NCBI GenBank assembly: GCA_964474435.1
Contig: CAYYSI010000002.1
Coordinates: 163,604 to 227,603 of the forward strand
Length of the DNA: 64,000 bases
From: an uncultured Candidatus Saccharibacteria bacterium
GTDB lineage: Bacteria > Patescibacteriota > Minisyncoccia > Phycocordibacterales > UBA9973
Direction of reading: 5' to 3'
Within the stretch, counting starts at the first letter, position 1, and each line of letters begins with the position of its first letter. The translations under genes were made by a program, and so were the position numbers. Shown piece after piece: positions 3,481 to 57,713 of the stretch. The notes below the pieces were generated by a model. The model saw only the letters and a list, made by a program, of their open reading frames with translations, ran no database searches and was not told the DNA's origin.

Positions 3481-3487
3481 AAGGGGA

Positions 3488-3811
3488 ATGTCTACCAAAC
3501 CAGAAACCATCGATTTCATTCTCGCCAAGCTCGGCGACTACGAGCGGTTCACGACGCGCAAGATGTTTGGGGAATATGCGCTCTATGCAGATGGGAAAGT
3601 TGTCGCGCTCGTCTGTGATGATCAGTTCTATATAAAGATCATGCCCGAGAGCGCAGCACTTGCTGATATCTGCGAACAAGACTCGCCGTATCCTGGTGCA
3701 AAACCACACTACCTCGTCGAAGAACATCAGCTCTCGACGATCAAAGAATTACCAGACATATTAATTGCGATCGGGAAGGCGTTACCGAAGAAGCGAATTG
3801 TTAAAAAATAG
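3488..3811 (+). CDS. TfoX/Sxy N-terminal domain protein (competence-regulator-like).
   Basis: The start was re-chosen at ATG 3488 within ORF 3308-3811, preceded by AAGGGGAA. TRKMFGEYALYADGKVVALVCDDQFYIKI matches the TfoX_N pattern RKMFGGYGLY.DGK.FALI.D..LYLK. Confidence 0.55.
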   Translation: MSTKPETIDFILAKLGDYERFTTRKMFGEYALYADGKVVALVCDDQFYIKIMPESAALADICEQDSPYPGAKPHYLVEEHQLSTIKELPDILIAIGKALPKKRIVKK

Positions 3812-14444: not shown

Positions 14445-16127
14445 ATGCACCCTCTCGTGTTACAATCATCCTCTATGAACCCCACTCTGCCGACACCTGC
14501 TGAGCTTGAAATCCTCCTCGCAAAGCGTTTGAGGCTCTCGCCTGACGAGCATCAAGCGTTTATTGCGCCCACGTACAAACTCGGAGACCTCTTTGCATTT
14601 ACTGACATGCAGATCGCAGTTGCGCGATTCTACAAGGCTGTGACAGGTGGGGAACACATCGGGATTTATTCAGACTATGACTGTGATGGCATTCCGGGCG
14701 CAGTGGTGTTCATCGATCTGTTCAAGAAACTTGGCATCATGGATCGCGTGCATGTGTACATTCCCGATCGGCATGACGAAGGCTACGGGGTAAGCAAAAT
14801 TGGGATCGATGAACTCGAAAAGCAGGGCGTGACACTTATGCTCACAGTCGATGTTGGGATCACCGCGATTGCAGAAATAGCTGACGCACAGTCACGCGGT
14901 ATCGATGTCATCCTCACCGATCATCACGCACCACTTCCAGAATTCCCAGCTGCATTTGCAGTTGTGCATCCCGCAAAAGGGAACTATGTAAACCAAGATC
15001 CGTGTGGTGCTGCAATGGCCTTTTATGTGGTGTGTGCATTCCTCGAAAAATATCGCGCAGAGTTCGACATACCAGAGGGCTGGGAGAAATGGCTACTCGA
15101 TCTCGTCGGGTTTGCGACTCTTGCCGACATGGTGCCACTGGTCGGAGAGAATCGCATGCTTGTTGCGTATGGACTCCATGTCGTGCGCAAGACTCGCCGC
15201 ATTGGGCTCAAGATGTTGCTTGAGAAAAATGGCATCGCGCTCCCAAATCTGATCGAAACAGACCTCACATTCACTGTCGCACCCCGACTGAACGCCGCGT
15301 CACGCATGGACACACCCATGCTTGCATTTGAGCTCCTCTCAACTGACGACCCAGAGCGTGCTAAAGAGATCGTATCTATCCTCGACTCCATCAACAACGA
15401 TCGCAAGGTACTCGTTGCTCGCATTGTCAAAGCCGCGCACGCAAGCCTCGAACAACGATCAGTTGCAAATGATCTCTCACCGATCGTAGTTATCGGCAAC
15501 CCGGAATGGCGACCCGCAGTCCTCGGTCTTGTGGCAAACAAACTCCAGGAAAAATACAACCGAAGCTTCTTTGTCTGGGGCGAGGCAGGGGACGGCACGA
15601 TCAAGGGTTCATGTCGCATGATCGATGAACACCATGCAGCGCTCCTATTCCAAGCATTGCCCGAAGGCATGGTGCTCCATGCAGGCGGACACCAAGCAGC
15701 GGGTGGATTCTCTGTCTCCAAAGACAACATTCACTTCCTCGAAGAAGCATTGAATGCTGCGATCGCAAGTGTCGACCATACTGGTGCTGACAAAGATACG
15801 CTGGATGTGATCGCGCTCCCGCTCGTGAGCTCGACGACGCGCCATCTCTCTGTGGTGCGCAAGTTTGCACCCTTTGGTGTAGGCAACACCGAGCCACACT
15901 TTATGTTTGAAGGGCTCCTCATCATGTCAGTAAAAATGTTTGGGAAACAAAAGGAGCACATCGAAGTCATGATTCGTGACTCGACTGCAAGTGCGACTGC
16001 ATTTACATTCTTTGCAGACGAGAAACTCATCTCGCAACTCACCGAAGGCAATACTGTGACAATCATTGGCACCATTGAAGCGGGCTGGAGGGGAGGAGTA
16101 CGGATCAGGATACAGGAGGTGAAATAA
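14445..16127 (+). CDS. recJ: Single-stranded-DNA-specific exonuclease RecJ (DHH/DHHA1).
   Basis: 560 aa. Motifs DYDCDGIPGAVV, TDHHAP and the DHHA1 region GGHQAAGG. Confidence 0.85.
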   Translation: MHPLVLQSSSMNPTLPTPAELEILLAKRLRLSPDEHQAFIAPTYKLGDLFAFTDMQIAVARFYKAVTGGEHIGIYSDYDCDGIPGAVVFIDLFKKLGIMDRVHVYIPDRHDEGYGVSKIGIDELEKQGVTLMLTVDVGITAIAEIADAQSRGIDVILTDHHAPLPEFPAAFAVVHPAKGNYVNQDPCGAAMAFYVVCAFLEKYRAEFDIPEGWEKWLLDLVGFATLADMVPLVGENRMLVAYGLHVVRKTRRIGLKMLLEKNGIALPNLIETDLTFTVAPRLNAASRMDTPMLAFELLSTDDPERAKEIVSILDSINNDRKVLVARIVKAAHASLEQRSVANDLSPIVVIGNPEWRPAVLGLVANKLQEKYNRSFFVWGEAGDGTIKGSCRMIDEHHAALLFQALPEGMVLHAGGHQAAGGFSVSKDNIHFLEEALNAAIASVDHTGADKDTLDVIALPLVSSTTRHLSVVRKFAPFGVGNTEPHFMFEGLLIMSVKMFGKQKEHIEVMIRDSTASATAFTFFADEKLISQLTEGNTVTIIGTIEAGWRGGVRIRIQEVK

Positions 16128-16158
16128 AAATACTGCCAGGATTTGGCAGTATTTAATG
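16128..16158. terminator. Bidirectional intrinsic terminator between recJ (+) and the 16163-16405 (-) ORF.
   Basis: aaaaa-tactgcca-ggatt-tggcagta-ttta. Perfect 8-bp stem with A/T tracts on both sides. Confidence 0.5.
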
Positions 16159-16162
16159 AAAG

Positions 16163-16405
16163 CTACTTTTTTAACAGAAATTTTCTCAAACCGTTTTTTA
16201 GGTTATCAATTCTTTCAGGAAGGATAGTTACTGTAAATTCAGTACGTCCCCGGCTCGTTTTGATAGAAGAATGTTCAATTGTCCCATTTGTGTTTAAGAA
16301 AATGAAAGTTTTAAACTCCTCACTTTCAAAAATTTTCTTTGGGAAGTTTTGTACAAAGTAATCTTCAGCAGTTTTTGTCACTTGAATATCTAATATGCGT
16401 GCCAT
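16163..16405 (-). CDS. Hypothetical small protein.
   Basis: 80-aa ORF lying in an AT-rich stretch. No motif recognised. Confidence 0.3.
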   Translation of the reverse strand: MARILDIQVTKTAEDYFVQNFPKKIFESEEFKTFIFLNTNGTIEHSSIKTSRGRTEFTVTILPERIDNLKNGLRKFLLKK

Positions 16406-16545
16406 ATGTAATGTGCGTTTAGTTATTACACACGGTATATGGATTGCTTCGTACTGTCAAATGATTAACTAATGCCATTGACATCTCAGTACTTTATAGT
16501 AGTATTTGTGGAAACAATTTTTAACCTGTTCTAAAACAAACAAAT

Positions 16546-17811
16546 ATGAAAAGAAGAGAAATACCGAAACTTTGCTTCAAAGAGCTCTTGGTATTAGCCA
16601 GAGAACTCATTTTTGTAGAAAAAACACATCTTCCTCAACGTATTACGATGAGAGAATTTTCTCGGAGCATTCAGGTTGAATTCATTAAGAGATTCCGTTG
16701 CTATAAGCAAAATCTTCGTGATGAACTTCATGGCGAATTATCAATTATGATTGCTGATATGAATGGGATCATTCTAGACAAAATAGAGATGCCCAAACGA
16801 GAGATAATCAAGATACCTCTTTCGGATGATATATATAAAAACCTTCCGGATATTGAATTTCTTGAGTTACTAAAATCAGCACTCCATGCTGATGATGGGG
16901 TGTATAGTTCATTTGGTTTTACACCAAAACTTTCGCTTCATCGGGAAACTACCGATAGGTTACAAATGGGTCTCAACTGCTTCGGTATCGCAAGTCTTAT
17001 TGGATCATATTGCACATGGAAAGGAATTTCTGTTGAACTTGGTATTACACCAGATCATCCGTACGCGGTCGTTTCCTTGAAAGAAGGAGTATATCTTGTT
17101 GACCATTTCAATCTCATAAAGTTAGACGGTGAAATCAAACGATATAAGGATTACGGGGTGTATTATCCTACAGAGAAAGAAGAAGGGAAAATCCTCGCTA
17201 TGATCATGGTAGTTCCGTTTGATGATGGCTTGGTCTATGAAATACTTGAGAATACAGAAATGCTTAGATGTGTACTCAATGGTACTCAAAAGGATATGTT
17301 ACCTGGTACAGAATGTAAAGGTAAAATTATTGCAAAGGAAAATGAAACGATTCTCAATCGTTGCAACTGGAAACAATTACAGATGTTGCTATTTCCTGAA
17401 ATTACGGCTGCATTTGCTAAGCATCAGCTTGGATGGCAGCTCAATGTATCTATGATCTATCAACAGCGATATGAATGGTATGCTCAGAAAATTTTTGAAT
17501 ATGCTGCATTTCATGCACAAAAAGCAACACTATTTTCTAGTGAAAAGTTCGATGAAGCACATGAAGTATTGGTCGACGTATTTAAGGATCATTACGAAGA
17601 AATCATGTTGTATTTAGAACATGGAATGGAATTTAGTGAATTTGTACCATTAGATGTTTGTAACTATTTTTGCACTCTAAAAGTTGCAATAAATAAAAAA
17701 GAACAAGAGGATGGTACACTTGTTGCTGAGCATATTTATAAAATGATCAACACTAAGCTTGTTGACATGAATATCCAAAAGAAGTATAAGGAAACAAATC
17801 TCGTCACCTAA
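16546..17811 (+). CDS. Hypothetical protein with a transglutaminase-like (papain-fold Cys-His-Asp) core.
   Basis: 421 aa in an AT-rich region. GLNCFGIASLIGSYCTWKGISVELGITPDHPYAVVSLKEGVYLVDHFN matches the order G-x-C ... GI ... H ... D of transglutaminase-like cysteine peptidases. Confidence 0.45.
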   Translation: MKRREIPKLCFKELLVLARELIFVEKTHLPQRITMREFSRSIQVEFIKRFRCYKQNLRDELHGELSIMIADMNGIILDKIEMPKREIIKIPLSDDIYKNLPDIEFLELLKSALHADDGVYSSFGFTPKLSLHRETTDRLQMGLNCFGIASLIGSYCTWKGISVELGITPDHPYAVVSLKEGVYLVDHFNLIKLDGEIKRYKDYGVYYPTEKEEGKILAMIMVVPFDDGLVYEILENTEMLRCVLNGTQKDMLPGTECKGKIIAKENETILNRCNWKQLQMLLFPEITAAFAKHQLGWQLNVSMIYQQRYEWYAQKIFEYAAFHAQKATLFSSEKFDEAHEVLVDVFKDHYEEIMLYLEHGMEFSEFVPLDVCNYFCTLKVAINKKEQEDGTLVAEHIYKMINTKLVDMNIQKKYKETNLVT

Positions 17812-17822
17812 ATCATCAGGTT

Positions 17823-18029
17823 ATGTTTTTTATTAGTAAAAAGAAGTTTAAAGAAACAGTTAAAAACGCAGTAGATGAGCATCTGAAGAGTACGGGAAAG
17901 GAGGTGATAGTACAAAAGACAGTAGTACAACATCACCACCATTCAAATTCAGGTAGTAGTTCATCTGTTCGTCAGGATGGATCAAATATAAATGGTCCAT
18001 CAGAAGCTCTAAAGAAATCGTGGCTATAA
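17823..18029 (+). CDS. Small hypothetical protein with a His4 and Ser-rich stretch.
   Basis: 68-aa ORF containing HHHHSNSGSSSS. It could be non-coding. Confidence 0.2.
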   Translation: MFFISKKKFKETVKNAVDEHLKSTGKEVIVQKTVVQHHHHSNSGSSSSVRQDGSNINGPSEALKKSWL

Positions 18030-18069
18030 TCTCCACACATTAATCCTTCCATAAAATGGGAGGATTTTT

Positions 18070-18522
18070 TTATTTCTTCTCTTCAAGCATCTTTATAATC
18101 TTGTCGAGTTTGTCTTGTTCAATAGAATCGAGGCGGGACATGAGTTGTTCGATTTCTTCTTTGGCGGCGAGGTTTGTCTCGTAGTCATTTTGTGCCTGTT
18201 CACGATCACGCAGGCTTGCACGGTTTTGGCTCATCATGATGATTGGTGCGGCATACGCAGCTTGTGTTGAAAAGACGAGGTTGAGCAAGATAAATGGAAA
18301 CGGATCCCAGTGATGCACATAGGCCACCATGTTCAATGCCATCCATATGACCACAAATACGGTCTGCGTAATAATGAAGCCCCATGAGCCCATGCCATTT
18401 GCGATCGAGTCTGCCATCCGCTGTCCAAAGGTTCGTTCGCTAAGAAGTTTTTCATTGAGGTTTCGTACCTGGCGAATCTTGCGCTCTGCCTTTGTCCGCA
18501 TGTCTTTCGTTGTTTGTTCCAT
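18070..18522 (-). CDS. DUF1003 family membrane protein.
   Basis: 150 aa. SWGFIITQTVFVVIWMALN ... DPFPFILLNLVFSTQAAYAAPIIMMSQNRASLRDREQAQNDYETNL matches the conserved DUF1003 block (DPYPFILLNL..S..AA..AP.ILMSQNRQ..RD). Confidence 0.6.
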   Translation of the reverse strand: MEQTTKDMRTKAERKIRQVRNLNEKLLSERTFGQRMADSIANGMGSWGFIITQTVFVVIWMALNMVAYVHHWDPFPFILLNLVFSTQAAYAAPIIMMSQNRASLRDREQAQNDYETNLAAKEEIEQLMSRLDSIEQDKLDKIIKMLEEKK

Positions 18523-18547
18523 ATAGGTACTATGATACTGCTATACT

Positions 18548-19279
18548 GTGGGAATGAAAAGCCAAAAAGATCATATAGCGTTGTATACAGATGGGGCTTC
18601 CCGTGGCAATCCAGGCCCAGGCGGTTGGGCAGCGATTGTGATAGGTGATGAAAAGGTGATTGAGCTTGCAGGAGCAAAGAAGCCCGCGACGAACAACCAA
18701 ATGGAACTCCAAGCAGTGATCGCAGGGCTTGCGTATGCGCAGAAACATTTCCCTGATGGGGCAGTTGAGCTCCATGCAGACTCGCGCTATGTGCTTAATG
18801 GTATTGAGAAATGGCTTGATGGATGGGTCCGGAAAGGGTGGATGACAATGGTCAAGAAGCCGGTGGAAAATAGAGATCAATGGGAAGAGCTCCTTGCACT
18901 CCGTGATCACTTTGGCAAAAATCTGAAACTCACCAAAGTCGACGGACACAGTGGACATCTCTACAACGACCGATGTGACGAGCTTGCAGTTACGGCTGCA
19001 CTTGGCAAAAAGGTAGATCTCTTTGAAGGGAGCACAAAGGCATACGACACCTATCTCGCCGACAATCCTCCAACCTCTGAGAAAAAATCTCCCTCAAAAG
19101 CAAAGACAGGACCAGCCTACTCGTACGTGTCACTTGTCGATGGCAAGGTGTACGCCGACAAAGATTGGGCAGCGTGTGAGAAGCGCGTCAAAGGAAAAAA
19201 CGCCAAGTTCAAAAAAGTATTTTCAAAAGCAGAAGAGACTGATTTGATACAGGATTATACATTGGCGAGTTTGATGTAG
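18548..19279 (+). CDS. rnhA: Ribonuclease HI with a C-terminal hybrid-binding (dsRHbd / Cauli_VI-like) domain.
   Basis: 243 aa. The RNase H core has TDGASRGNPGPGGWAA, ...NNQMELQAV... and DGHSGHLYNDRCDELA. The C-terminal ~60 aa, YSYVSLVDGKVYADKDWAACEKRVKGKNAKFKKVFSKAEE, matches the pattern YAV..G...GIY..W.EC...V.G.....YKKF of RNase H1 hybrid-binding domains. Confidence 0.75.
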   Translation: MGMKSQKDHIALYTDGASRGNPGPGGWAAIVIGDEKVIELAGAKKPATNNQMELQAVIAGLAYAQKHFPDGAVELHADSRYVLNGIEKWLDGWVRKGWMTMVKKPVENRDQWEELLALRDHFGKNLKLTKVDGHSGHLYNDRCDELAVTAALGKKVDLFEGSTKAYDTYLADNPPTSEKKSPSKAKTGPAYSYVSLVDGKVYADKDWAACEKRVKGKNAKFKKVFSKAEETDLIQDYTLASLM

Positions 19280-20026: not shown

Positions 20027-21481
20027 ATGATTGAACTTGTTGCGCTCATGCTGACTATTGGTGCGCTGTTGTATCACAGCTTTCACACAGGGATCGAGAT
20101 GGTGAGCTATATTGGAGTACTTGTTGCGATATGTATCGGTATCTTTTTCCGATCAGGTCGAGGGTTGGCGTTCGGAGTAATACTTAGTGGGACACTGATA
20201 CTCGGAGCACTTGCAGTCTGGCGGATCGATGTACGGACTCCGCCTGACATATTTGGGAACCGTGCATTTGATGCGACAGTGGTGTCAGTTGATCGCAGGC
20301 TTGATAAAACAAACCTGGTTGTGCGCGACTCTGTGTATGATGAGCGGCTGCAGGCAAGTGTGGTGGGGGATATTGAATTGCTGCCCGGAGACCGGATCAC
20401 CGTACGAGGCAGTGTCGAAGCGCCAGAGGACTTTGTGACAAACTCAGGGCGCATCTTTGGATACCAAGCATACCTGTCGAGCAAGGGGATTGTGGGACTT
20501 GTGAAGAATCCGACGGTTGTACTTGTGAAAGAAGGGCACATATCGCTGTCGCGTGTTGCGACGATCATCAGGTACAAAGTTGCTGATATTTTTGCGGAGC
20601 ATATCTCATTTCCGGTGGACGGCGTGATCGGTGGCATGGTTGTTGGGTACCAAGGTGGACTCCCGCAATCAATCCAAGATCTCTTTCGTGACACCGGCGT
20701 GCTCCATGTCCTCGTGCTCTCCGGCTACAACATCACGCTCCTGGCGGGATTCCTCGCGCTCATATTGAAGTCTCTGCCGTTTCGTCTCCGCACTGCCATC
20801 ACTGCAATCGCCATCATCATGATCGTGCTCGTCAGTGGGGCCGGCGTTGCATCGGTGCGAGCAGGAATCATGGGATCGATAGCCCTTGTTGCAGGGCTGT
20901 CGATCAGGACGTATCAGCCCATGCGGGCATTGTTTGTGTCGTACATAGTATTCTTTTTCATTTCGCCGCACACGATATTTGCTGATCCTGGATTTCATCT
21001 GTCATTTCTCGCAACGCTGTTTATGATTGCCGTGCTGCCCAAAGTTGAACAACTGTTTCACTTCATTCCACAAACCAAACACGTCGATCTGCGCGAGCTC
21101 ATCATGCTTGCAGTATCGGCCCCGATATTTATGTTGCCGTACACGATGTATTTCTCGGGCAACTTTCCACTCGCGTCCCCGTTTGCCAACATGCTGCTCG
21201 CCATCGTCACACCGATCATTATGATTGCGGGGATTATTGTCATTGCACTATCATGGATCACACCACTTGCCGCATTGTTCGGAATGATTATTTCAGTTGC
21301 AGGAAAGGCGGTGCTCTGGTGTCTCGTGCAGTTTGCCAAGCTCCCCATATGGAACACACCACCAATTGCGTGGTGGTGTGTAGTTGGTATCTATGGAGTG
21401 ATTCTTGTCGCGTTATTTAAAAACAATATCGTTACTTATTTTTCGCATCGTCATAGAGTGCTTCGACGGCGGACCAGTTGA
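20027..21481 (+). CDS. comEC: ComEC/Rec2 DNA-uptake channel (DUF4131 plus Competence domain). It lacks the C-terminal metallo-beta-lactamase domain.
   Basis: 484 aa and polytopic. GVLHVLVLSGYNITLLAGF matches the ComEC competence-domain signature (..LLVISGLHI..). An N-terminal OB-like region is present. Confidence 0.7.
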   Translation: MIELVALMLTIGALLYHSFHTGIEMVSYIGVLVAICIGIFFRSGRGLAFGVILSGTLILGALAVWRIDVRTPPDIFGNRAFDATVVSVDRRLDKTNLVVRDSVYDERLQASVVGDIELLPGDRITVRGSVEAPEDFVTNSGRIFGYQAYLSSKGIVGLVKNPTVVLVKEGHISLSRVATIIRYKVADIFAEHISFPVDGVIGGMVVGYQGGLPQSIQDLFRDTGVLHVLVLSGYNITLLAGFLALILKSLPFRLRTAITAIAIIMIVLVSGAGVASVRAGIMGSIALVAGLSIRTYQPMRALFVSYIVFFFISPHTIFADPGFHLSFLATLFMIAVLPKVEQLFHFIPQTKHVDLRELIMLAVSAPIFMLPYTMYFSGNFPLASPFANMLLAIVTPIIMIAGIIVIALSWITPLAALFGMIISVAGKAVLWCLVQFAKLPIWNTPPIAWWCVVGIYGVILVALFKNNIVTYFSHRHRVLRRRTS

Positions 21482-22034
21482 TAGATGCAAAGAAATCCTC
21501 GACGTACTGTTTCTTGCCGCTTGGCTGATAGTCGGCGACGTATGCGTGCTCCCACATATCAAGCGCGATGATGATACTGCAGTCCGCAAGCTGCCCGAGG
21601 TGTTGCTCGTCTATCCATGCAGGGAGGAGCATGTCAGACTTCTTGTCATAGCAGAGCATTGCCCAGCCGATGCCGCGGGTCATGGCAGTCATTTTCATGC
21701 GAGTGACAAAGATGTCGATTGTGTCCCATTGCTTGATGATTTTTTTATATAAATCAGACTCAGGATTGGGAGCAGTCGCGCCATCTGCAAGGAGTGCAAA
21801 GTACACTTCGTGGTTGCGCATGCCACCCCATTCAAATGAAAATCTGCGCTGCAGCTCACCGAGCTCATAGGTGTATTTCTCAATATTCTCGGCGTCTTTA
21901 GTGAATTCTCGTGCGTGATCAGCAATAAGGTTTGCGTGCTTCACATATCCCACATAGAGCTTCTTGTGTTCGTCATGCGTCGTTTGGGTAATTTTGCCAA
22001 AAGGTTGGGGTGAAAGGGTTTGTTCTGTAAACAT
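21432..22034 (-). CDS. Fe/Mn superoxide dismutase.
   Basis: The start was re-chosen at MFTEQTL within ORF 21432-22154. Motifs HDEHKKLYVGYV, WGGMRNHEVYF, GIGWAMLCYD and LDMWEHAYVADYQ are classic Fe/Mn-SOD ligand and signature regions. Confidence 0.8.
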   Translation of the reverse strand: MFTEQTLSPQPFGKITQTTHDEHKKLYVGYVKHANLIADHAREFTKDAENIEKYTYELGELQRRFSFEWGGMRNHEVYFALLADGATAPNPESDLYKKIIKQWDTIDIFVTRMKMTAMTRGIGWAMLCYDKKSDMLLPAWIDEQHLGQLADCSIIIALDMWEHAYVADYQPSGKKQYVEDFFASINWSAVEALYDDAKNK

Positions 22035-22122
22035 ATAGGGAGTATATAGGAATTGGGGAGGGTTGGGTATATGCAGTTTGACTTTCTGATGGAAATAAGG
22101 AGAATGGGTAAAAACTATTAAT

Positions 22123-22434
22123 ATGAAAAATAATGACAATGAACCCTTTTTCATTGACGAAAAAGGAAGAATTATTTTTAAAATAACTAAAACAATTAAG
22201 AAAAAGATTACAGTATCTGAAGATGAAATGAAGACACTTTTGATACAGCGTCACATTATCAGCAATAGCAGAGACCCTCTTTTTTCTAAAAGAATAAAAA
22301 AATCAGGAGCGAAATCTTTAGCCGAATATGCTAAAAAACTAGAAAGTAGCCCATCTGTTATTGAGTATGCCAAAAAAATGGCAGCAAAAATAAATGCTTT
22401 AAATCTAATTGTTCATCAAAGAGTTGTTATATAG
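22123..22434 (+). CDS. Small Lys-rich hypothetical protein.
   Basis: 103-aa ORF, very AT-rich. No family recognised. Confidence 0.25.
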   Translation: MKNNDNEPFFIDEKGRIIFKITKTIKKKITVSEDEMKTLLIQRHIISNSRDPLFSKRIKKSGAKSLAEYAKKLESSPSVIEYAKKMAAKINALNLIVHQRVVI

Positions 22435-22515
22435 ACAACTTTTTTTATTTGTCCAATATAATAATATTCAAAACAACTTTAAATAATATTTAACCATCCA
22501 CGCTACAATACCTCC

Positions 22516-23376
22516 ATGAACAGAAAAACCGCAACGCTTGCGATCATGCTGACAATCATCCTCGTGCTTGGTATTGCGGCGGCGGTGCTTCAGCCGAGTG
22601 CTGTGGTGGGCAAGGGAAGTGTTGCGATGCTCGATATTGGCCAGGGTGATAGCTTCCTCATTCAGTCAGCGAGTGGCACGCAGCTCCTCATTGATGGTGG
22701 CAAAGATTCAAAGGTGTTGAGCGAGCTCAGCAAGGCAATGCCGACCGGCGACCATACGATTGATGTTGTTATTGCCACGCACCCAGATGCAGATCACATT
22801 GGAGGACTACCATTGGTCCTTGAGCGATATAGTGTCGGACTCTTCCTCACCTCAGAGGTTACGAGTGACAGTCAGGTATTCCGAGATCTCAATGGATTGA
22901 TTCATGAAAAAAATATTCCTGCATATTATGCGCGAGGTGGCATGACACTTGCACTTGATGATGAGACTTCGTTCAAAGTCCTCTTTCCCGATCGTGACAC
23001 CACTGGCTGGGAAACCAACACTGCATCGGTTGTGGGACGACTCGATATGAGCGGTCGCAGCATGTTGCTCAATGGAGACTCACCGATATCTATCGAACAA
23101 TACCTCGTACAACACGCGCCGCGCGACATCGATGTCGATATTTTGAAACTAGGGCATCATGGTTCCAAGACTTCGAGTAGTGCTGAATTCCTCAAGGCAA
23201 CAAGTCCAGCACTCGCGCTGATCTCTGCGGGTGTGAACAATCGTTACGGCCATCCTGCACCCATTGTCCTCGATCGCCTCAAGGAGCTCCATATCCCTTG
23301 GGTCTCGACGCAGCAACACGGACTGGTGACATTCACGACCGATGGTACCAAGTGGGTGGAGAAGGATGAGAAATAG
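22516..23376 (+). CDS. Membrane-anchored metallo-beta-lactamase-fold protein, equivalent to the ComEC C-terminal nuclease domain but encoded as a separate gene.
   Basis: 286 aa with an N-terminal TM helix. Motifs AMLDIGQGDSFLIQ, IATHPDADHIGG and KLGHHGSKTSS fit the MBL HxHxDH pattern as found in ComEC. Confidence 0.7.
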   Translation: MNRKTATLAIMLTIILVLGIAAAVLQPSAVVGKGSVAMLDIGQGDSFLIQSASGTQLLIDGGKDSKVLSELSKAMPTGDHTIDVVIATHPDADHIGGLPLVLERYSVGLFLTSEVTSDSQVFRDLNGLIHEKNIPAYYARGGMTLALDDETSFKVLFPDRDTTGWETNTASVVGRLDMSGRSMLLNGDSPISIEQYLVQHAPRDIDVDILKLGHHGSKTSSSAEFLKATSPALALISAGVNNRYGHPAPIVLDRLKELHIPWVSTQQHGLVTFTTDGTKWVEKDEK

Positions 23377-24097: not shown

Positions 24098-24346
24098 TTA
24101 TTTCAAAACACCAGCTTTCTTGAGTGATGCGTAGGCACCGTTTTTGGTGATTGTGCGGAGACCTTTGGCTGAAACAGTGATGATGACGTTTTTGCCGATT
24201 TCAGGGACGTAGATGCGCTTCTTTTGGAGGTTGGCATACTTGCGAGAAGGGGTGATAGGGTTGAATTTGGTCGCACGAACCTTGGTCGAGTATCCACCCG
24301 CCATCTGTGAGGTCTTTTTAGTTATTGCGCATTCTTTTGCCATAGT
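24098..24346 (-). CDS. rpmB: 50S ribosomal protein L28.
   Basis: The start was re-chosen at MAKECAITKKTSQMAGGYS. ...ITVSAKGLRTITKNG matches the L28 pattern (LRVSAKGMRVIDKKG). Confidence 0.8.
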   Translation of the reverse strand, partial: TMAKECAITKKTSQMAGGYSTKVRATKFNPITPSRKYANLQKKRIYVPEIGKNVIITVSAKGLRTITKNGAYASLKKAGVLK

Positions 24347-24376
24347 GATTGCCATGGTACCATAGAGGGTATTGCT

Positions 24377-25000
24377 ATGCAAGGACCGATTTCTATTTTT
24401 TATTTCCTCATATTAATGATTTCTATCATTGTGCACGAGGTTGCACACGGGCTCATGGCAGAGAGAGAAGGCGACCCAACGGCCCGCATGCTCGGACGCA
24501 TCACACTTAACCCACTCAAGCACATCGACTGGCTCGGGTCAGTCATTTTGCCACTGACACTCATACTCTCTAATGCTGGATTTGTCGTCGGCTGGGCAAA
24601 GCCAGTGCCGTACAATCCCGAAAATCTGAAAAATGGCAACAAATCGGTCGCCAAGGTCTCGATCGCAGGGATCGTCGTGAACCTCTGCATTGCCGTCGTG
24701 TTTGGGATAATGATCCGCATTTCCATCCTCACGGGCCTTATTTCTACGGCATTTATTGATATCGCAAGTATTATTGTGCTCGTAAATATTGTACTCGCAC
24801 TCTTCAATGCCATTCCACTCGCACCACTTGACGGCTTCCGCTTCCTCAATGCAGTGCTCCCAGCGAGATTTACTCCAGCAATGCGAGCAATCGAGCAATA
24901 TAGCCTGCCACTCCTCCTTGTCTTCATCGTCTTTGGCTGGAAATTCGTCGCTCCATTTGCCTTTACGCTCTTTAGTTTGATTACGGGGATTTCTATATAA
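24377..25000 (+). CDS. Site-2 protease family (M50-like) intramembrane zinc metalloprotease.
   Basis: 207 aa and polytopic. HEVAHGLMA (HExxH) and NPLKHIDWLGS with LAPLDG are typical of small M50B/SpoIVFB-like proteases. Confidence 0.6.
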   Translation: MQGPISIFYFLILMISIIVHEVAHGLMAEREGDPTARMLGRITLNPLKHIDWLGSVILPLTLILSNAGFVVGWAKPVPYNPENLKNGNKSVAKVSIAGIVVNLCIAVVFGIMIRISILTGLISTAFIDIASIIVLVNIVLALFNAIPLAPLDGFRFLNAVLPARFTPAMRAIEQYSLPLLLVFIVFGWKFVAPFAFTLFSLITGISI

Positions 25001-25047
25001 TCGGCCTACTTGATTAATTTTGACCACTATAGTAGGATATGCTCCAC

Positions 25048-25470
25048 ATGGCTACTATTAACCAGCTTATAAAGAAACCTCGCAAGAGTACTGCTCGCAA
25101 ATCAAAGGCGGTCACTCTCTCTCGAGGATTTAATGCGATTCACAATCGTCCTGTTCTCTACGCGTCTCCGTTCAAGCGTGGTGTGTGCGTCAAAGTTTCA
25201 ACAACAACTCCAAAGAAACCTAACTCAGCTATCCGAAAAATCGCTCGTGTTCGCCTTACCAACGGTGATACTGTGACTGCATACATCCCAGGTGAAGGCC
25301 ACAACCTCCAGGAACACTCAGTGGTTATGCTTCGCGGAGGCCGTGTGAAGGACTTGATCGGAGTCCGATACCACATCGTGCGCGGTGTGCTCGATACTCA
25401 GGGTATCGACAAGCGACGCAAGTCTCGCTCTATGTACGGAACCAAGCGCCCTAAGGTAGCTAAGAAATAA
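25048..25470 (+). CDS. rpsL: 30S ribosomal protein S12.
   Basis: [13 protein letters not shown]... [19 protein letters not shown] ... [11 protein letters not shown]. Start chosen at the conserved MATINQL. Confidence 0.9.
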
Positions 25471-25475
25471 ATTTT

Positions 25476-25946
25476 ATGCGAAGAAAAGTAACAAATCGAA
25501 ATATCGTAAAGCCTGACATCAAGTTTGATAGCACAACACTTGAAAAGTTCATTAACTCCATCATGATGGATGGCAAAAAGAACACGGCTCGTACTGTGGT
25601 CTATGGCGCACTCGACATCATCAAGGAAAAAGAAAGCGTTGAAAACCCGCTCGATACCTTTAATGAAGCACTCAAGAATGCAGGACCACTCGTGGAAGTT
25701 CGTTCACGACGTATTGGTGGAGCAAACTACCAGGTGCCACGAGAAGTTCGTGCTGAACGCCGCACTGCGCTCGCAATGCGATGGATCATCGAAGCAACTC
25801 GCGGACGCAAAGGAGTAAAGACCGCTGTTGCACTCGCCGAAGAATTGATGCTCGCAGCAAAGGGAGAAGGAAATGCCGTCAAGAAAAAGAAGGATACGCA
25901 CAAAATGGCAGAATCCAACAAAGCATTTGCCCACTTTGCTTGGTAA
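25476..25946 (+). CDS. rpsG: 30S ribosomal protein S7.
   Basis: 156 aa. KFINSIMMDGKKNTAR ... RRIGGANYQVP. Confidence 0.9.
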   Translation: MRRKVTNRNIVKPDIKFDSTTLEKFINSIMMDGKKNTARTVVYGALDIIKEKESVENPLDTFNEALKNAGPLVEVRSRRIGGANYQVPREVRAERRTALAMRWIIEATRGRKGVKTAVALAEELMLAAKGEGNAVKKKKDTHKMAESNKAFAHFAW

Positions 25947-26094
25947 ACCGACTCATATACAAACACGAAGTTCCCAAGAGGGGATTTTTTGTTGCAAAAA
26001 GGGAGGTTGTGCCGTATAGTTGTGGACACAAGTGTGACCTCGGAAGTCCCTTTTTATTTTAGTATCTAACCCTTTATTACAGAAGAATTATTAT

Positions 26095-28236
26095 ATGCAA
26101 CGAGAGTACCCCCTCAATAAAACACGTAACTTCGGAATCATTGCCCACATTGATGCCGGCAAAACCACGACTTCAGAACGCGTGCTCTACTATACTGGTC
26201 AGAGTCACAAGATCGGAGAAGTGCACGATGGTGAGACCACAACTGACTGGATGGAACAGGAGCGAGAGCGCGGTATCACTATCACTGCAGCTGCGGTGAC
26301 TTGTGCGTGGATCCCAACATATGAAAAAGGGGACAAGAGTAAGAGCTTCCGATTCAACATCATCGATACGCCAGGACACATCGACTTTACGGTGGAAGTG
26401 AAGCGATCACTGCGTGTACTCGACGGAGCAGTAGTGGTGTTCGACGGTGTTGCAGGAGTAGAACCTCAATCAGAAACAAACTGGCGTTACGCTGATGAAG
26501 CGCAAGTACCGCGTATTTGTTTTGTGAATAAACTCGACCGAACTGGTGCATCATTTGAACATTCATACAAGACGATCCAGGAACGACTTTCAAAGAAAGC
26601 TGTGCGATACCAGATCCCAATCGGACTTGAAGAAAATCACGAAGGTGTTGTTGATCTCCTCGAAATGAAGGCCTACTACTTCGAAGGTGAGATGGGGAAC
26701 AAGGTGATCCAAAAGGAGATCCCAGAAAACATGCTCGCCGAAGCCAAGACACTTCATGCAGAACTCGTCGAACGCATTGTCGAAAATGACGAAGCACAAA
26801 TGAATGCATACCTCGAAGGCAACGAACCAAGTCTTGCAGAACTCAAGGCAACCATGCGCAAGGCAGTCATTGCAAATGCAATCTTCCCAGTCTTTGCAGG
26901 TTCTGCATTGAAAAACAAAGGTGTACAGCTCGTCCTCGACGCCGTTGTTGACTACTTGCCAGCACCGATTGATATCAAGGCGATCACTGGTGTTAATCCA
27001 GATACTGACGAAGCGATTGATCGACCAGCAGACGATAGTGCACCGTTTTCAGCGCTCGCATTCAAGCTCATGGCCGATCCATTCGTTGGACAGCTCGTCT
27101 TCTTCCGTGTGTATTCAGGTACGCTCGAAGCAGGGTCATCGATCTACAATCCACGTACTCGCAACAAGGAACGCATCTCTCGTATCGTGCGCATGCAAGC
27201 CGACCAGCGTGAAGAAGTCCAGAAAGTATTCGCAGGAGAAATCGCGGCAGCTGTGGGACTCAAGGATGTGATCACGTCAGACACACTCTGTGATGAAGCA
27301 AATCCGATCGCGCTTGATCGTATCAAGTTCCCAGACCCAGTTATCTCACTCCGTATTGAACCAAAGACCAAAGCTGACCAAGAAAAGATGGGTCTTGCAC
27401 TCAACCGTCTCGCCAAAGAAGACCCAACCTTTGTGGTATCAACTGATCCAGAAACGATGGAAACTATCATCGCAGGTATGGGAGAGCTCCACCTCGAGAT
27501 CATCATCGATCGTATGAAGCGTGAGTTCAACGTTGAAGCAAACGTTGGTAAGCCACAGGTTGCATACCGCGAGACTATCACTGGTACTGCAGAAGTAGAA
27601 GGTAAGTACATCAAGCAGTCTGGAGGTAAGGGTAACTACGGTCACGTGAAAATCAAGATGAAGCCAATGGATCAGTCTATCAAGGCAGAAGACTTGCCAA
27701 AGAACACGACTCGCAAAAATGGTTACGAATTCATCAACAACATCAAAGGAGGAGCTATTCCAAATGAATTCATCCCACCAATCGAAAAAGGATTCCGAGA
27801 AGGTTTGGAACGTGGTGTACTCGCAGGCTTCAAACTCGAAAACGTCTCTGTCGAACTTTACGATGGATCATTCCACGAAGTCGACTCAAACGAAATGGCC
27901 TTCAAGATTGCTGCATCAATGGCAGTGCAGGATGCTGCAAAGATGGCAAAGCCTGTTATTCTTGAACCAATGATGAAAGTCGAAGTCGTCACTCCTGACA
28001 AGTTCATGGGAGATGTGACGGGATCACTCTCAGGCAAGCGAGGTATCATCGAAGGAATGGAGACTCGTGGACTCAACCAGGTCGTCAACGCAGTTGTACC
28101 GCTTTCAGAAATGTTTGGCTACATGACGAACCTTCGCTCTATGACCGAAGGACGCGCCGGATTTACGATGGAATTCCTCCGTTACGACATCGTGCCGACC
28201 AACGTTGCCGAGACGATCATCGCAGCGAGAAAATAA
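26095..28236 (+). CDS. fusA: Elongation factor G.
   Basis: 713 aa. G-domain motifs AHIDAGKTT and DTPGHIDF, with domains II-V present. Confidence 0.95.
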
Positions 28237-31053: not shown

Positions 31054-31207
31054 GTTTTTGTACTTTTTACCCCGAAGGGAGGGCCGAAGCCATTTGTACT
31101 ACTAGTATACTTGGCGCTCGTGATAAGTCAATTTTCCCCGAAGGGAACGTGAGTAGCCCAAAATGTATACTAAGTATATCAAACCCTATTTGCTATAATT
31201 ACTCAAT

Positions 31208-31699: not shown

Positions 31700-31707
31700 G
31701 TAAAAAA

Positions 31708-31758: not shown

Positions 31759-31776
31759 GAAGCAAAACTTACAATT

Positions 31777-53316: not shown

Positions 53317-53687
53317 TGAACACTGGAAAACACATTCTTATTGCCGAAGATGAGAAGCCGCTTTCTCGAGCACTTGAACTAAAACTCGCAAGCGAGGGAT
53401 TTGTCATTGATACTGCATTTGATGGTGAGACGGTCAAAGAAAAGATTGCTGCAAACACGTACGACATTATTCTCATGGACCTCATGATGCCCAACCATGA
53501 TGGCTTTGCAGTGATCGAGGATCTCAAGTCTCGCGGCATCACGACTCCAGTTGTCATCATGTCCAACCTCAGCCAAGACTCTGATCGCAACCGTGCCGCG
53601 ATCGCTGGTGCAAGTCACTACTTCGTCAAGGCAGATGTGAAGCTCGCCGATATTGTTAGCTATATCAAAGAAACACTTAGTCATTAA
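53316..53687 (+). CDS. Single-domain response regulator (CheY-like receiver).
   Basis: 123 aa. ILIAEDE...DIILMDLMMP(N)HDG ... VVIMSN are the canonical receiver motifs. Translationally coupled to the kinase (overlapping stop/start). Confidence 0.8.
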   Translation: MNTGKHILIAEDEKPLSRALELKLASEGFVIDTAFDGETVKEKIAANTYDIILMDLMMPNHDGFAVIEDLKSRGITTPVVIMSNLSQDSDRNRAAIAGASHYFVKADVKLADIVSYIKETLSH

Positions 53688-53694
53688 AATCACC

Positions 53695-55362
53695 ATGTTT
53701 GACCAGGCTCTTTATCAAAACATTCTCCTCGATCAAAACTACATTAGTCCCGCTGATGCGGCAGCTGCCAGTGCATACGAGGCAGCAGGACGGGGGACAT
53801 TTATCGAATACCTTCTCCAAAACGATATTCTCAATGAGTCGACCCTTGGCCTTGCGATTGCCGAGCACTACAACACGACGTTTGCAGACCTTGGTACTCG
53901 ACCACCATCTGATGTCGACATGGCTCGCATTCCCGAAGATATTTCCAAGAAATACCGCATCGTATTTATCGATGGTACCGAGACCGCAGTCCGAGTTGCA
54001 AGTGATACGCCTGATAATGCAGAGCTTCCAGGCGTCCTTGCGACTCTCTTTCCGAACATACCGGTGACGATATCGTTTGCATTTACGACTGCGATCGACA
54101 CCGTGCTCAGCCATTACCAAAAGGCGCTCAATACCCGATTTTCTGATATTATCAAAGGCGACAAACGCGTTGCCCCAGAAATCTTTGATGAGATCATCAA
54201 AGACGCGATTTCATTTCGTGCATCCGACATTCACTTTGAGCCCGCACTGACCAAGGCGATCGTCAGATTCCGTGTTGACGGCATGCTGAGGTTGGCAGGC
54301 GAGATCCCACGTGAGTATTACGAAAATGTATTGAACCGCATCAAGATCCAATCAAATCTCCGTACTGACGAGCACTTTGCACCACAGGATGGCGCGATCC
54401 GATTTGTTTCGGCAGCTACCACAGTCGATCTCCGTGTGTCCATTGTTCCGACCCTTGATGGCGAAAAGGTCGTGATCCGCGTGCTTGCAGAATACGTCAA
54501 AGGGCTCACCTTTGCAGATCTCGGATTTTCTGATCGCAACATCGCACTCCTTGAAGCGGCAGCGCGCAAGCCGTTTGGGATGATCATCGTCTCTGGACCG
54601 ACTGGATCTGGAAAGACGACGACATTGTATTCACTCATCAAGAAACTCAATACGCCCGAAGTCAACATCACAAGTATTGAAGACCCGGTTGAGTACCGTA
54701 TGATTGGTGCAAACCAGATCCAGGTTAACCCCAAGACCGATCTCACCTTTGCCAAAGGGTTGCGCGCCATCGTTCGTCAGGACCCCAACATTATTTTGGT
54801 CGGAGAAATCCGTGATACGGAGACTGCAGAGACCGCAGTGAATGCCGCATTGACTGGCCACCTGCTCCTTTCTACATTCCATGCAAATGATGCAGCAACA
54901 ACGATCCCGAGACTTTTGGAAATGTCGATCGAGCCATTCCTTCTTGCATCGACCGTAGAGCTCATCATCGCACAGCGACTCGTGCGCACTATCTGTGAAT
55001 CCTGTAAGCAAAGTTACAAGACAACACCTGCCAAACTCACAGAGCTCTTTCCGCAAGCAAAAAATTATTTCTCAGGCGCATCACTCACGCTCTACAAAGG
55101 CAACGGCTGTACTGCATGCAACAACACAGGATACCTCGGACGCACGTCTATCATCGAGATCATTTCAGTCGACAAGTCACTTCGCGAGCTCATTGTGACT
55201 CGGCCATCGGCAGGCGAGATTTGGGATGCGGCCAAGCGTGCAGGAGCACAGTCACTCTTTGATGATGGTATCAGCAAGGTCAAAGTTGGTGTCACCACGG
55301 TCGAAGAAATCCTGCGTGTCGCTTCTCCTGATCAGACTATTCAAATCCCCAAGAAGGTATGA
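53695..55362 (+). CDS. pilB: Type IV pilus / type II secretion assembly ATPase (PilB/GspE family).
   Basis: The start was re-chosen at MFDQALYQ within ORF 53653-55362. N-terminal GSPII_E_N domain. Walker A GPTGSGKTTTL. GEIRD...A..AA.TGH and the tetracysteine motif CESCK...C.AC. Confidence 0.85.
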   Translation: MFDQALYQNILLDQNYISPADAAAASAYEAAGRGTFIEYLLQNDILNESTLGLAIAEHYNTTFADLGTRPPSDVDMARIPEDISKKYRIVFIDGTETAVRVASDTPDNAELPGVLATLFPNIPVTISFAFTTAIDTVLSHYQKALNTRFSDIIKGDKRVAPEIFDEIIKDAISFRASDIHFEPALTKAIVRFRVDGMLRLAGEIPREYYENVLNRIKIQSNLRTDEHFAPQDGAIRFVSAATTVDLRVSIVPTLDGEKVVIRVLAEYVKGLTFADLGFSDRNIALLEAAARKPFGMIIVSGPTGSGKTTTLYSLIKKLNTPEVNITSIEDPVEYRMIGANQIQVNPKTDLTFAKGLRAIVRQDPNIILVGEIRDTETAETAVNAALTGHLLLSTFHANDAATTIPRLLEMSIEPFLLASTVELIIAQRLVRTICESCKQSYKTTPAKLTELFPQAKNYFSGASLTLYKGNGCTACNNTGYLGRTSIIEIISVDKSLRELIVTRPSAGEIWDAAKRAGAQSLFDDGISKVKVGVTTVEEILRVASPDQTIQIPKKV

Positions 55363-57711: not shown

Positions 57712-57713
57712 GT

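What the first reader, a model, noticed from the sequence alone, without database searches (positions are those of the whole stretch)
20027..23376. Split ComEC: competence-channel gene and its metallo-beta-lactamase nuclease domain are encoded as separate genes ~1 kb apart, with a superoxide dismutase gene on the opposite strand between them
ComEC normally fuses DUF4131, the Competence domain and a C-terminal MBL nuclease domain. Here 20027-21481 encodes the first two. The MBL domain (HxHxDH motif ATHPDADHIGG) is a separate N-terminally anchored protein at 22516-23376. An Fe/Mn-SOD gene (21432-22034, opposite strand) and a 103-aa ORF sit between them. The window also holds a TfoX-N gene and a pilB-pilC-pseudopilin operon, so it carries most of a DNA-uptake toolkit. 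This supports natural transformation in a reduced genome, with an unusual split nuclease.
Basis: partly seen in the sequence, partly recalled or inferred. Interest (0 to 1): 0.5.

Follow-up and report, generated by a model that had tools for sequence, protein, structure and literature searches.

The report
Two-gene ComEC DNA-uptake channel
In this ultra-small (Patescibacteria) bacterium the DNA-import protein ComEC is encoded as two genes, a channel and a separately membrane-anchored nuclease, with a superoxide dismutase gene wedged between them; the layout is real and shared by dozens of related genomes, so it is typical of the lineage and not an oddity of this genome.

Summary
Window 20027-21481 (+) encodes the OB-fold plus channel part of ComEC. 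Window 22516-23376 (+) encodes one N-terminal transmembrane helix plus a ComEC-type metallo-beta-lactamase nuclease domain. An Fe/Mn-SOD gene (21432-22034, -) and an orphan 103-aa ORF lie between them.

The split is not an artefact. It recurs in four independent assemblies and in 61 related Patescibacteria loci. The channel gene is always upstream on the same strand, and the two genes are never fused.

The two proteins align colinearly, without overlap, to residues 11-486 and 513-792 of a solved 801-residue ComEC. This places the break in the cytoplasmic TM10-TM11 loop. In other CPR classes the two genes are adjacent and overlap as ATGA, so the split predates the SOD gene.

The opposite-strand SOD gene sits between the halves in 44 of the 61 loci. 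It belongs to a larger conserved block: recJ, RNase H, comEC-N, SOD, MBL, L28, M50, rpsL.

Best explanation: a two-subunit ComEC whose nuclease docks in trans. Rival: a free-standing scavenging nuclease. I found no paper that describes the separate nuclease gene. Méheust 2019 noted only that the fusion is absent in CPR. Verdict: a lineage-wide variant of a known system, of moderate interest.

The parts
20027..21481 (+). comEC-N: three N-terminal TM helices, OB fold (DUF4131) and the Competence channel domain (equivalent to TM1-TM10), ending in a basic cytoplasmic tail (HRHRVLRRRTS)
   Evidence: Pfam PF03772 E 1.3e-38. Profile A2 aligns positions 7-460 to residues 11-486 of full-length ComEC PDB 30bt, E 1.6e-24. 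About 120 listed homologues of about 485 aa.
21432..21481 (.). 50-nt tail-to-tail overlap of the comEC-N and SOD coding regions
   Evidence: Coordinates. The 3' ends overlap by 4-62 nt in 16 of 45 loci, counting the window; the median is a 13-nt gap.
21432..22034 (-). Fe/Mn superoxide dismutase gene (200 aa) on the opposite strand between the two ComEC genes
   Evidence: Sod_Fe_C E 9.8e-20 and Sod_Fe_N 23.6 bits, below its cut-off. PDB SODs E 2.5e-18. A homologue sits at the same place and on the same strand in 44 of 61 related loci. The N-H, D and W-E-H ligand motifs and one helix-1 His are at least 95% conserved.
22035..22515 (.). AT-rich spacer between the divergent SOD and MBL genes; likely promoter region
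   Evidence: Sequence read. No strong + strand terminator lies between the genes. That this is a promoter region is inferred.
22123..22434 (+). Orphan lysine-rich 103-aa ORF; doubtful gene, or specific to this lineage
   Evidence: No Pfam or NCBIfam family. No homologue in 80 related loci. It is called as a gene in the public assemblies of the same organism.
22516..23376 (+). comEC-C: stand-alone ComEC nuclease subunit, made of an N-in transmembrane helix (TM11 equivalent) and a beta-lactamase-like nuclease domain
   Evidence: TIGR00361 positions 421-663, E 8.9e-37. Profile A1 positions 12-283 align to 30bt residues 513-792, E 1.4e-42. AF2 pLDDT 92 and pTM 0.87. Foldseek top hit 9ic4.
22522..22587 (+). 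N-terminal membrane anchor of the nuclease (residues 3-24), preceded by R3 and K4
   Evidence: AF2 helix 3-24. It aligns with the hydrophobic segment 513-535 of full-length ComEC that directly precedes the nuclease domain.
22780..22797 (+). Catalytic motif H89-P-D91-A-D93-H94 (HxDxDH)
   Evidence: Invariant in 34 homologues, together with D45, D188, H214, H215 and H246. Same motif type as H598-x-D600-x-D602-H603 of the solved ComEC domain (PMC12455585).
23392..23949 (+). 185-aa membrane/secreted ORF 16 nt downstream of the nuclease gene; probably co-transcribed; function unknown
   Evidence: No family. Conserved at this position only in the two closest relatives, L005 and L006.
14445..19279 (+). 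Upstream part of the conserved block: recJ (14445-16127) and RNase H (18548-19279), here separated by a low-GC insertion
   Evidence: Pfam. recJ is found upstream of the nuclease gene in 45 related loci and RNase H in 49.
24098..28236 (.). Downstream part of the conserved block: L28 (-), M50 peptidase, rpsL, rpsG, fusA
   Evidence: Gene calls and Pfam families, Pfam. Found downstream in 38-66 related loci.
3494..3811 (+). TfoX_N-domain gene (context: competence regulator family)
   Evidence: PF04993 E 1.4e-11 on ORF 3308-3811. The start at the internal ATG is inferred from the peptide found.
53653..58229 (+). Type IV pilus genes: pilB, pilC and two N-methyl pseudopilins (context)
   Evidence: T2SSE E 6e-119, T2SSF E 1e-41, N_methyl motifs.

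Best explanation
The locus encodes a two-subunit ComEC. Subunit 1 (comEC-N) is the membrane channel with its extracytoplasmic OB-fold DNA-binding domain, equivalent to TM1-TM10 of canonical ComEC. Subunit 2 (comEC-C) starts exactly where canonical ComEC enters its last transmembrane helix (TM11). That helix anchors the protein N-in/C-out and places a catalytically intact beta-lactamase-like nuclease on the outer face of the membrane. There it docks next to the OB fold over the channel mouth. It degrades the non-translocated DNA strand while the other strand is imported. Shown here: the domain content, the colinear complementary mapping onto a solved full-length ComEC, the invariance of the catalytic residues, the near-obligate linkage and fixed order of the two genes, and translational coupling (ATGA overlaps) in lineages where they are adjacent. 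Inferred: physical assembly in trans, nuclease activity, and a role in DNA uptake. The split predates the class Paceibacteria. A SOD gene later became lodged between the halves on the opposite strand and has stayed there as part of a strongly syntenic block, so in this genome the nuclease gene is probably transcribed from its own promoter in the SOD-MBL spacer.
For: Domain assignment.

Colinearity: the N profile maps to residues 11-486 and the C profile to residues 513-792 of the 801-residue ComEC 30bt. The published cryo-EM description places a short cytoplasmic helix between TM10 and TM11. It calls TM10/TM11 peripheral and reports TM11 missing in one protomer (PMC13539106), which makes this a structurally tolerant place to cut.

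Topology: the N protein ends in a basic tail. The C protein begins MNRK followed by 20 hydrophobic residues, modelled as helix 3-24.

Catalytic residues D45, H89, D91, D93, H94, D188, H214, H215 and H246 are invariant in 34 homologues.

Linkage: 49 of 51 Patescibacteria loci with at least 4.5 kb upstream of the nuclease gene carry comEC-N upstream on the same strand. Eleven loci have the genes adjacent; eight of these overlap, five as ATGA and three by 8-26 nt.

Family size: about 145 of the top 150 50%-identity clusters are nuclease-only proteins of roughly 270-330 aa.

Biochemical precedent: the isolated ComEC nuclease domain is a weak enzyme that is enhanced by the OB fold (PMC12455585). 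This argues that the nuclease works next to subunit 1.
Against: No direct evidence of interaction.

In SOD-containing genomes the two genes are no longer one simple operon. Two loci (L035, L062) keep the nuclease gene without an adjacent comEC-N.

ComEC-type MBL domains also occur as free extracellular proteins fused to lamin-tail or S-layer-homology domains in Firmicutes, so this domain can work without a channel.

The one CPR organism with demonstrated comEC-dependent transformation, S. epibionticum, has a DC-type ComEC. Its gene tables list no ComEC-type MBL, so the nuclease subunit may not be needed for transformation.
Confidence: 0.7

Rival explanations
1. The MBL protein is an autonomous membrane-anchored extracellular DNase used to scavenge nucleotides. 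These organisms cannot make nucleotides de novo. It descends from a ComEC domain and stays near comEC-N only because gene order in this region is frozen.
For: The whole region from recJ to fusA is syntenic, including opposite-strand genes with no obvious functional link (SOD, L28), so proximity alone is weak evidence. L035 and L062 retain the nuclease gene without an adjacent comEC-N. ComEC-like MBL domains exist as free extracellular proteins with LTD or SLH domains. DC-type ComEC alone is associated with transformation in S. epibionticum.
Against: Adjacent genes overlap as ATGA in several classes. Order and strand are fixed in 61 of 61 loci that hold both genes. The protein keeps the TM11-equivalent helix and no extra DNA-binding or wall-binding domain. 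The isolated ComEC nuclease domain binds DNA poorly without the OB fold (PMC12455585).
Confidence: 0.2
2. The two-gene state is ancestral (pre-fusion), not a fission. Canonical three-domain ComEC arose by fusing neighbouring genes like these.
For: Pimentel & Zhang 2018 reconstructed a Competence-only ancestor with repeated gains of Lactamase_B. The adjacent, translationally coupled gene pairs are what a pre-fusion intermediate would look like.
Against: The nuclease subunit already carries the helix that is TM11 of the fused protein. Fused DCL proteins are spread over many phyla. My NJ tree has one fused outgroup and cannot polarise the event. This rival concerns history only. It is compatible with the two-subunit mechanism, so its confidence is not exclusive with that of the best explanation.
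Confidence: 0.25
3. The split is an assembly error, a frameshift or a decaying pseudogene.
For: None found.
Against: Identical architecture in four independent assemblies. 61 related loci with intact ORFs of both halves. Invariant catalytic and channel residues. An entire intact gene lies between the halves.
Confidence: 0.01

Closest known systems
Canonical three-domain ComEC/Rec2 (Bacillus subtilis ComEC; Neomoorella carbonis ComEC, PDB 30bt; TIGR00361)
   Same: Same three modules in the same order: OB fold, Competence channel, beta-lactamase-like nuclease with HxDxDH. Together the two proteins cover residues 11-792 of the 801-residue structure.
   Different: Two polypeptides from two genes, cut in the TM10-TM11 cytoplasmic loop. 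Here the genes are about 1 kb apart with an opposite-strand gene between them. Neither half reaches the TIGR00361 cut-off of 190 bits.
DC-type ComEC (DUF4131 + Competence, no nuclease domain), e.g. Saccharibacteria S. epibionticum SEML1_0777, required for transformation (PMC10633639)
   Same: comEC-N has this architecture and size (484 vs 482 aa).
   Different: Here a ComEC-type nuclease gene accompanies it. In S. epibionticum the gene tables list none. The only nearby MBL there is a 211-aa PF13483-type hydrolase.
Streptococcus pneumoniae EndA working with ComEC
   Same: A separately encoded, membrane-bound nuclease degrades the non-transforming strand at the outer face of the membrane beside ComEC (as described in PMC8579336).
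   Different: As described in PMC8579336, EndA is a separate membrane-bound endonuclease, not a detached ComEC domain; that it has a non-MBL fold is from my own knowledge and was not tested here. Here the trans nuclease is the ComEC domain itself.
Free ComEC-like MBL proteins of Firmicutes (Lysinibacillus MBL + lamin-tail domain; Bacillus plasmid MBL + S-layer-homology proteins)
   Same: Stand-alone ComEC-type MBL domain with an N-terminal hydrophobic segment, 35-38% identical to the window protein.
   Different: They carry extra LTD/SLH domains, lie in unrelated gene contexts and have no comEC-N within 10 kb.

Membership tests
ComEC/Rec2 (DNA internalisation channel) | Competence transmembrane domain (PF03772) | tested here: met
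   133.4 bits, E 1.3e-38, in 20027-21481.
ComEC/Rec2 (DNA internalisation channel) | N-terminal OB fold (DUF4131, PF13567) after three TM helices | tested here: met
   The window protein scores 21.2 bits, below the 31.6 cut-off. Many close homologues carry a precomputed PF13567 hit. The family profile aligns through the OB region of 30bt, residues 11-486.
ComEC/Rec2 (DNA internalisation channel) | C-terminal beta-lactamase-like nuclease domain with HxDxDH and the other metal ligands | tested here: met
   Present in 22516-23376. Catalytic residues are invariant. E 1.4e-42 to ComEC structures. Foldseek top hit 9ic4.
ComEC/Rec2 (DNA internalisation channel) | All three modules on one polypeptide (TIGR00361 equivalog, cut-off 190 bits) | tested here: not met
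   Two genes. The halves score 59.7 and 126.6 bits. No fused form in 61 related loci or in the top 150 cluster representatives.
ComEC/Rec2 (DNA internalisation channel) | Metal-dependent nuclease activity and a requirement for DNA uptake/transformation | not testable with these tools
   Needs biochemistry or genetics. The only CPR genetics available are for a Saccharibacterium with DC-type ComEC.
Fe/Mn superoxide dismutase | Sod_Fe_C and Sod_Fe_N domains with the His, His, Asp, His metal ligands | tested here: inconclusive
   Sod_Fe_C scores 70.9 bits. Sod_Fe_N scores 23.6 bits, below the 27 cut-off. The helix-2 His and the D-x-W-E-H ligands are conserved. A conserved helix-1 His is present but offset by one position in the alignment to 1p7g.
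Free extracellular ComEC-like MBL nucleases (LTD/SLH-linked) | Extra lamin-tail or S-layer-homology domain and a gene context independent of comEC | tested here: not met
   The window protein is TM helix plus MBL only. It is linked to comEC-N in 49 of 51 informative loci.

The most novel reading that the evidence does not exclude
Encoding the nuclease as a separate subunit, in most Paceibacteria with its own promoter divergent from a superoxide dismutase gene, lets these nucleotide-auxotrophic cells regulate channel and nuclease independently. They could then switch ComEC between a DNA-as-food mode and a genetic-transformation mode, possibly tied to oxidative or metal status through the shared SOD-nuclease control region. 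More broadly, some of the roughly half of bacterial ComECs scored as lacking a nuclease domain may have it encoded in trans.
Probability: 0.12. Interest if true: 0.7.

Novelty: new variant of a known kind. Interest (0 to 1): 0.45.

Why it matters
Specialists still ask how the non-transforming strand is degraded in the roughly half of bacteria whose ComEC lacks the nuclease domain (Silale 2021). Méheust 2019 reported only that the ComEC-MBL fusion is essentially absent from CPR. This locus and its relatives show that, for a large part of Patescibacteria, the domain is not missing but encoded separately, beginning precisely at TM11. Three things follow.

1. Domain-profile surveys undercount nuclease-equipped ComEC systems.
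2. Nature has already run the domain-separation experiment at a site the cryo-EM structure shows to be peripheral and flexible. This gives a tractable system to test whether nuclease and channel must be covalently linked.
3. Annotation pipelines that label both genes ComEC will double-count the gene in CPR metabolic reconstructions.

The conserved opposite-strand SOD gene between the halves is a useful synteny marker for Paceibacteria, but there is no evidence that it is functionally linked.

Tried and rejected
- phmmer of the single comEC-N sequence against PDB found nothing. The family profile was needed.
- An AF2 model of the two window proteins joined head-to-tail without an alignment was uninformative (pLDDT 41, pTM 0.27).
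- A mixed alignment of the fused query with separate N and C homologues (A4) was misaligned by MAFFT and abandoned. No test of subunit docking was therefore possible.
- I looked for homologues of the 103-aa, 204-aa and 421-aa ORFs in related loci and found none. The 185-aa ORF occurs only in L005 and L006.
- I considered that insertion of the SOD gene caused the split. This is rejected because Moran-, Levyi- and other lineages have the split with directly overlapping genes and no SOD.
- I considered that Lysinibacillus might have a trans-encoded ComEC nuclease. This is rejected because that protein carries a lamin-tail domain and sits in an unrelated context.
- The literature searches and the papers read from them turned up no description of a separately encoded ComEC nuclease in CPR. 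Absence from the held library is not proof of absence.
- I did not map the loop-2 "pin" residues (R688/F689/F691 of L. pneumophila ComEC), because I lacked that sequence.
- Many record titles read "uncultured Candidatus Saccharibacteria", yet those loci group with Paceibacteria in the tree. I did not rely on those labels.
Full report
**1. What is there**

- **ORF 20027-21481 (+, 484 aa).** It carries the Pfam Competence domain (PF03772, E 1.3e-38) and a sub-threshold DUF4131/OB-fold match.
- **ORF 22516-23376 (+, 286 aa).** It is a metallo-beta-lactamase-fold protein. Its best curated-family match is the C-terminal third of TIGR00361 ComEC_Rec2 (model positions 421-663 of 663, E 8.9e-37), followed by the E. 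coli ComEC model (positions 484-728 of 758).
- **ORF 21432-22034 (-).** This is an Fe/Mn superoxide dismutase. Its last 50 nt overlap the last 50 nt of the channel gene.
- **ORF 22123-22434 (103 aa).** It lies in an AT-rich spacer. It has no family and no homologue elsewhere.

The wider claims also hold:
- a TfoX_N gene in ORF 3308-3811;
- pilB, pilC and two pseudopilin genes at 53.6-58.2 kb.

**2. Not an artefact, and not peculiar to this genome**

The exact comEC-N protein is found on contigs from four independent sequencing runs, with the same order: comEC-N, SOD (-), 103-aa ORF, MBL.

Protein searches returned hundreds of channel-only proteins of about 485 aa and nuclease-only proteins of about 285 aa. 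Named sources were Paceibacteria, Minisyncoccia and Patescibacteria, and many hits share contigs.

A scan of one genome per species with a nuclease alignment gave 80 loci. Of these, 77 are from Patescibacteria (Nomura-, Zambryski-, Kaiser-, Campbell-, Yonath-, Taylor-, Moran-, Uhr-, Gracili- and Levyibacteria among others) and 3 from Lysinibacillus.

I searched all six-frame ORFs of these loci with HMMs of the two halves:
- 61 related loci contain both genes.
- In every one, comEC-N is upstream of the nuclease gene on the same strand.
- In none are the two fused.
- Of 51 Patescibacteria loci with at least 4.5 kb of sequence upstream of the nuclease gene, 49 contain comEC-N.

An exhaustive profile search of 1.84 billion cluster representatives gave 14,804 proteins at E <= 1e-30. 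About 145 of the best 150 are nuclease-only proteins of roughly 270-330 aa. The longer exceptions I checked have no Competence domain.

**3. Where the protein is cut**

The two family profiles were compared with PDB sequences.
- The comEC-N profile (positions 7-460) aligns to residues 11-486 of an 801-residue full-length ComEC (entry 30bt, E 1.6e-24).
- The nuclease profile (positions 12-283) aligns to residues 513-792 of the same chain (E 1.4e-42). This includes the hydrophobic segment 513-535 that immediately precedes the nuclease domain.

The two gene products are therefore colinear and non-overlapping. Together they account for essentially the whole protein.

The published cryo-EM description of full-length ComEC (PMC13539106) reports:
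- 11 TM helices;
- a short cytoplasmic helix between TM10 and TM11;
- TM10 and TM11 peripheral to the channel;
- TM11 invisible in one protomer.

By inference from the alignment coordinates, the break lies in the cytoplasmic TM10-TM11 loop, and the nuclease subunit begins with the TM11 equivalent. That 30bt is the structure described in that paper is also my inference.

The sequence agrees with this topology. comEC-N ends in HRHRVLRRRTS. The nuclease starts MNRK followed by 20 hydrophobic residues.

AlphaFold2 with 34 homologues models helix 3-24 plus a confident MBL domain (pLDDT 92, pTM 0.87). The best structural match is the ComEC nuclease-domain crystal structure 9ic4 (E 1.8e-27, TM 0.84), followed by Pce. 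The ComEC authors reported the same ranking for their own domain.

The putative metal ligands and catalytic residues are invariant in 34 homologues: D45, H89, D91, D93, H94, D188, H214, H215 and H246.

**4. History of the arrangement**

In 11 loci the two genes are adjacent (gap -29 to +62 nt). Eight of them overlap: five by the classic ATGA stop/start and three by 8-26 nt. The other three are separated by a few to about 60 nt. The overlaps are the signature of translationally coupled operon partners. These loci include Moranbacteria and Levyibacteria (Microgenomates), where Pfam confirms Competence(+DUF4131) and Lactamase_B on separate ORFs.

In 44 of the 61 related loci, the space between the genes holds a homologue of the window's SOD gene. 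It is always on the opposite strand (E 1e-37 to 1e-84). Counting the window (45 loci), its 3' end abuts or overlaps the 3' end of comEC-N: 16 of 45 overlap, and the median is a 13-nt gap.

A rough neighbour-joining tree of the nuclease domains puts the SOD-free arrangements (Moran, Uhr, Levyi, Gracili) basal. The SOD-containing ones form one large Paceibacteria group with scattered SOD-free members.

The simplest reading is this: the split is older than Paceibacteria, the SOD gene was inserted once early in that class, and it was occasionally lost. The tree is crude (NJ, one fused outgroup). It cannot say whether the two-gene state is a fission or a pre-fusion relic.

The SOD gene is not uniquely tied to ComEC. 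The whole neighbourhood is conserved: recJ, RNase H, comEC-N, SOD(-), MBL, L28(-), M50 peptidase, rpsL, rpsG, fusA. Its persistence may simply reflect frozen gene order.

**5. How it most likely works**

The best-supported model is a two-subunit ComEC, with confidence about 0.7. The channel/OB-fold subunit and the TM-anchored nuclease subunit would assemble in the membrane, so that the nuclease sits beside the OB fold at the channel entrance. There it would degrade one strand while the other is imported.

Support:
- the exact complementarity to the fused protein;
- the retained anchor helix, with no added DNA-binding or wall-binding domain;
- the near-obligate linkage and fixed order of the two genes;
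- translational coupling where they are adjacent;
- published biochemistry showing the isolated nuclease domain is weak and is stimulated by the OB fold.

Not shown: physical association, nuclease activity, and competence itself.

I could not run a docking prediction. The fused single-sequence model was uninformative. A mixed alignment was misaligned.

The main rival (about 0.2) is that the protein is an autonomous membrane-bound DNase for nucleotide scavenging. The evidence for it:
- ComEC-type MBL domains do occur as free extracellular proteins with lamin-tail or S-layer-homology domains in Firmicutes.
- Two loci keep the nuclease gene without an adjacent channel gene.
- The transformable Saccharibacterium S. 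epibionticum has a DC-type ComEC, and its gene tables list no ComEC-type MBL.

**6. Comparison with the literature**

- Pimentel & Zhang 2018 scored ComEC architectures only within the Competence-containing polypeptide.
- Méheust et al. [quoted passage not shown] They did not mention a separate nuclease gene.
- Silale et al. 2021 called strand degradation in CTD-less ComECs "an open and interesting question".
- A CPR-wide survey of MBL-fold genes does not mention ComEC or competence.
- Public annotations already name the nuclease-only protein "competence protein ComEC", "ComEC/Rec2 family" or "MBL fold metallo-hydrolase".

The homology is thus implicit in the databases. The papers from my searches that I read or term-searched do not describe the two-gene architecture, its cut site or the conserved SOD insertion.

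**7. Verdict**

The feature is a lineage-wide variant of a known system, not an oddity of one reduced genome. Interest is moderate, for three reasons:
- it partly answers an open question for a very large bacterial group;
- it offers a natural split-protein system;
- it has practical consequences for annotation.

The mechanism is still inferred, and the component families are well known.

Noticed in passing
window 3833-4459 (+): A 208-aa ORF matches cyclodipeptide synthase (CDPS, PF16715, E 1.5e-28), next to the TfoX_N gene. It is a tRNA-dependent peptide-forming enzyme in a genome expected to have minimal biosynthesis.
   Followed up: no
window 30661-32154 (+): A MazF/PemK-like toxin gene (30661-31053, E 7.8e-10) and two unassigned ORFs lie in a low-GC stretch (0.40). 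The stretch falls between rpsJ (30175-30534) and the next run of long + strand ORFs, which I did not identify. It looks like an insertion.
   Followed up: no
window 16128-18547: A low-GC (0.355) segment between recJ and RNase H holds a 421-aa orphan ORF (16546-17811), a 68-aa ORF and a DUF1003 gene on the minus strand. In most related loci recJ and RNase H are close together, and only L006 has the DUF1003 gene. Probably a lineage-specific insertion into the conserved block.
   Followed up: partly
L062 8035-11707; L035 7525-11898: Two Patescibacteria loci keep the nuclease gene at its usual place before L28/M50 but have no comEC-N nearby. L062 retains recJ, RNase H, SOD and MBL. L035 has unidentified ORFs upstream instead. 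Whether comEC-N is elsewhere in those genomes is unknown.
   Followed up: partly
S. epibionticum ML1 genes SEML1_0132/0133 (supplement of PMC10633639): In this cultivated Saccharibacterium a different, 211-aa PF13483-type MBL hydrolase sits immediately before an opposite-strand L28 gene. That is the position the ComEC-type nuclease occupies in the window. Its ComEC (SEML1_0777) is a 482-aa DC-type protein elsewhere in the genome.
   Followed up: no
L079 9989-11230; P0245: ComEC-like MBL domains fused to a lamin-tail domain occur in Lysinibacillus (413 aa). A tandem double-MBL plus LTD form also exists (721 aa). Both are in contexts unrelated to comEC. Bacillus plasmids carry versions annotated as S-layer-homology proteins.
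   Followed up: partly
window 21432-22034 (-) and 44 related loci: This SOD subfamily has a divergent first helix. Sod_Fe_N scores below its Pfam cut-off. The one strongly conserved helix-1 histidine is offset by one position from the canonical ligand His in the alignment to PDB 1p7g. The longest ORF extends 40 codons upstream (to 22154), but that extension is not conserved.
   Followed up: partly
window 51115-53316 (+): A CHASE-PAS-HisKA-HATPase sensor histidine kinase lies directly upstream of the pilB-pilC-pseudopilin genes. It may be a regulator of the pilus operon.
   Followed up: no
window 3308-3811 vs 2338-3480 (+): The longest ORF holding the TfoX_N domain starts at a TTG inside the preceding Kelch-repeat gene. 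The domain begins at residue 75, so the true start is probably the ATG near 3494.
   Followed up: partly
window 59503-59892 (-): tmRNA gene with tag peptide AKNSAKVASPYFSMAGAIPIFA.
   Followed up: no
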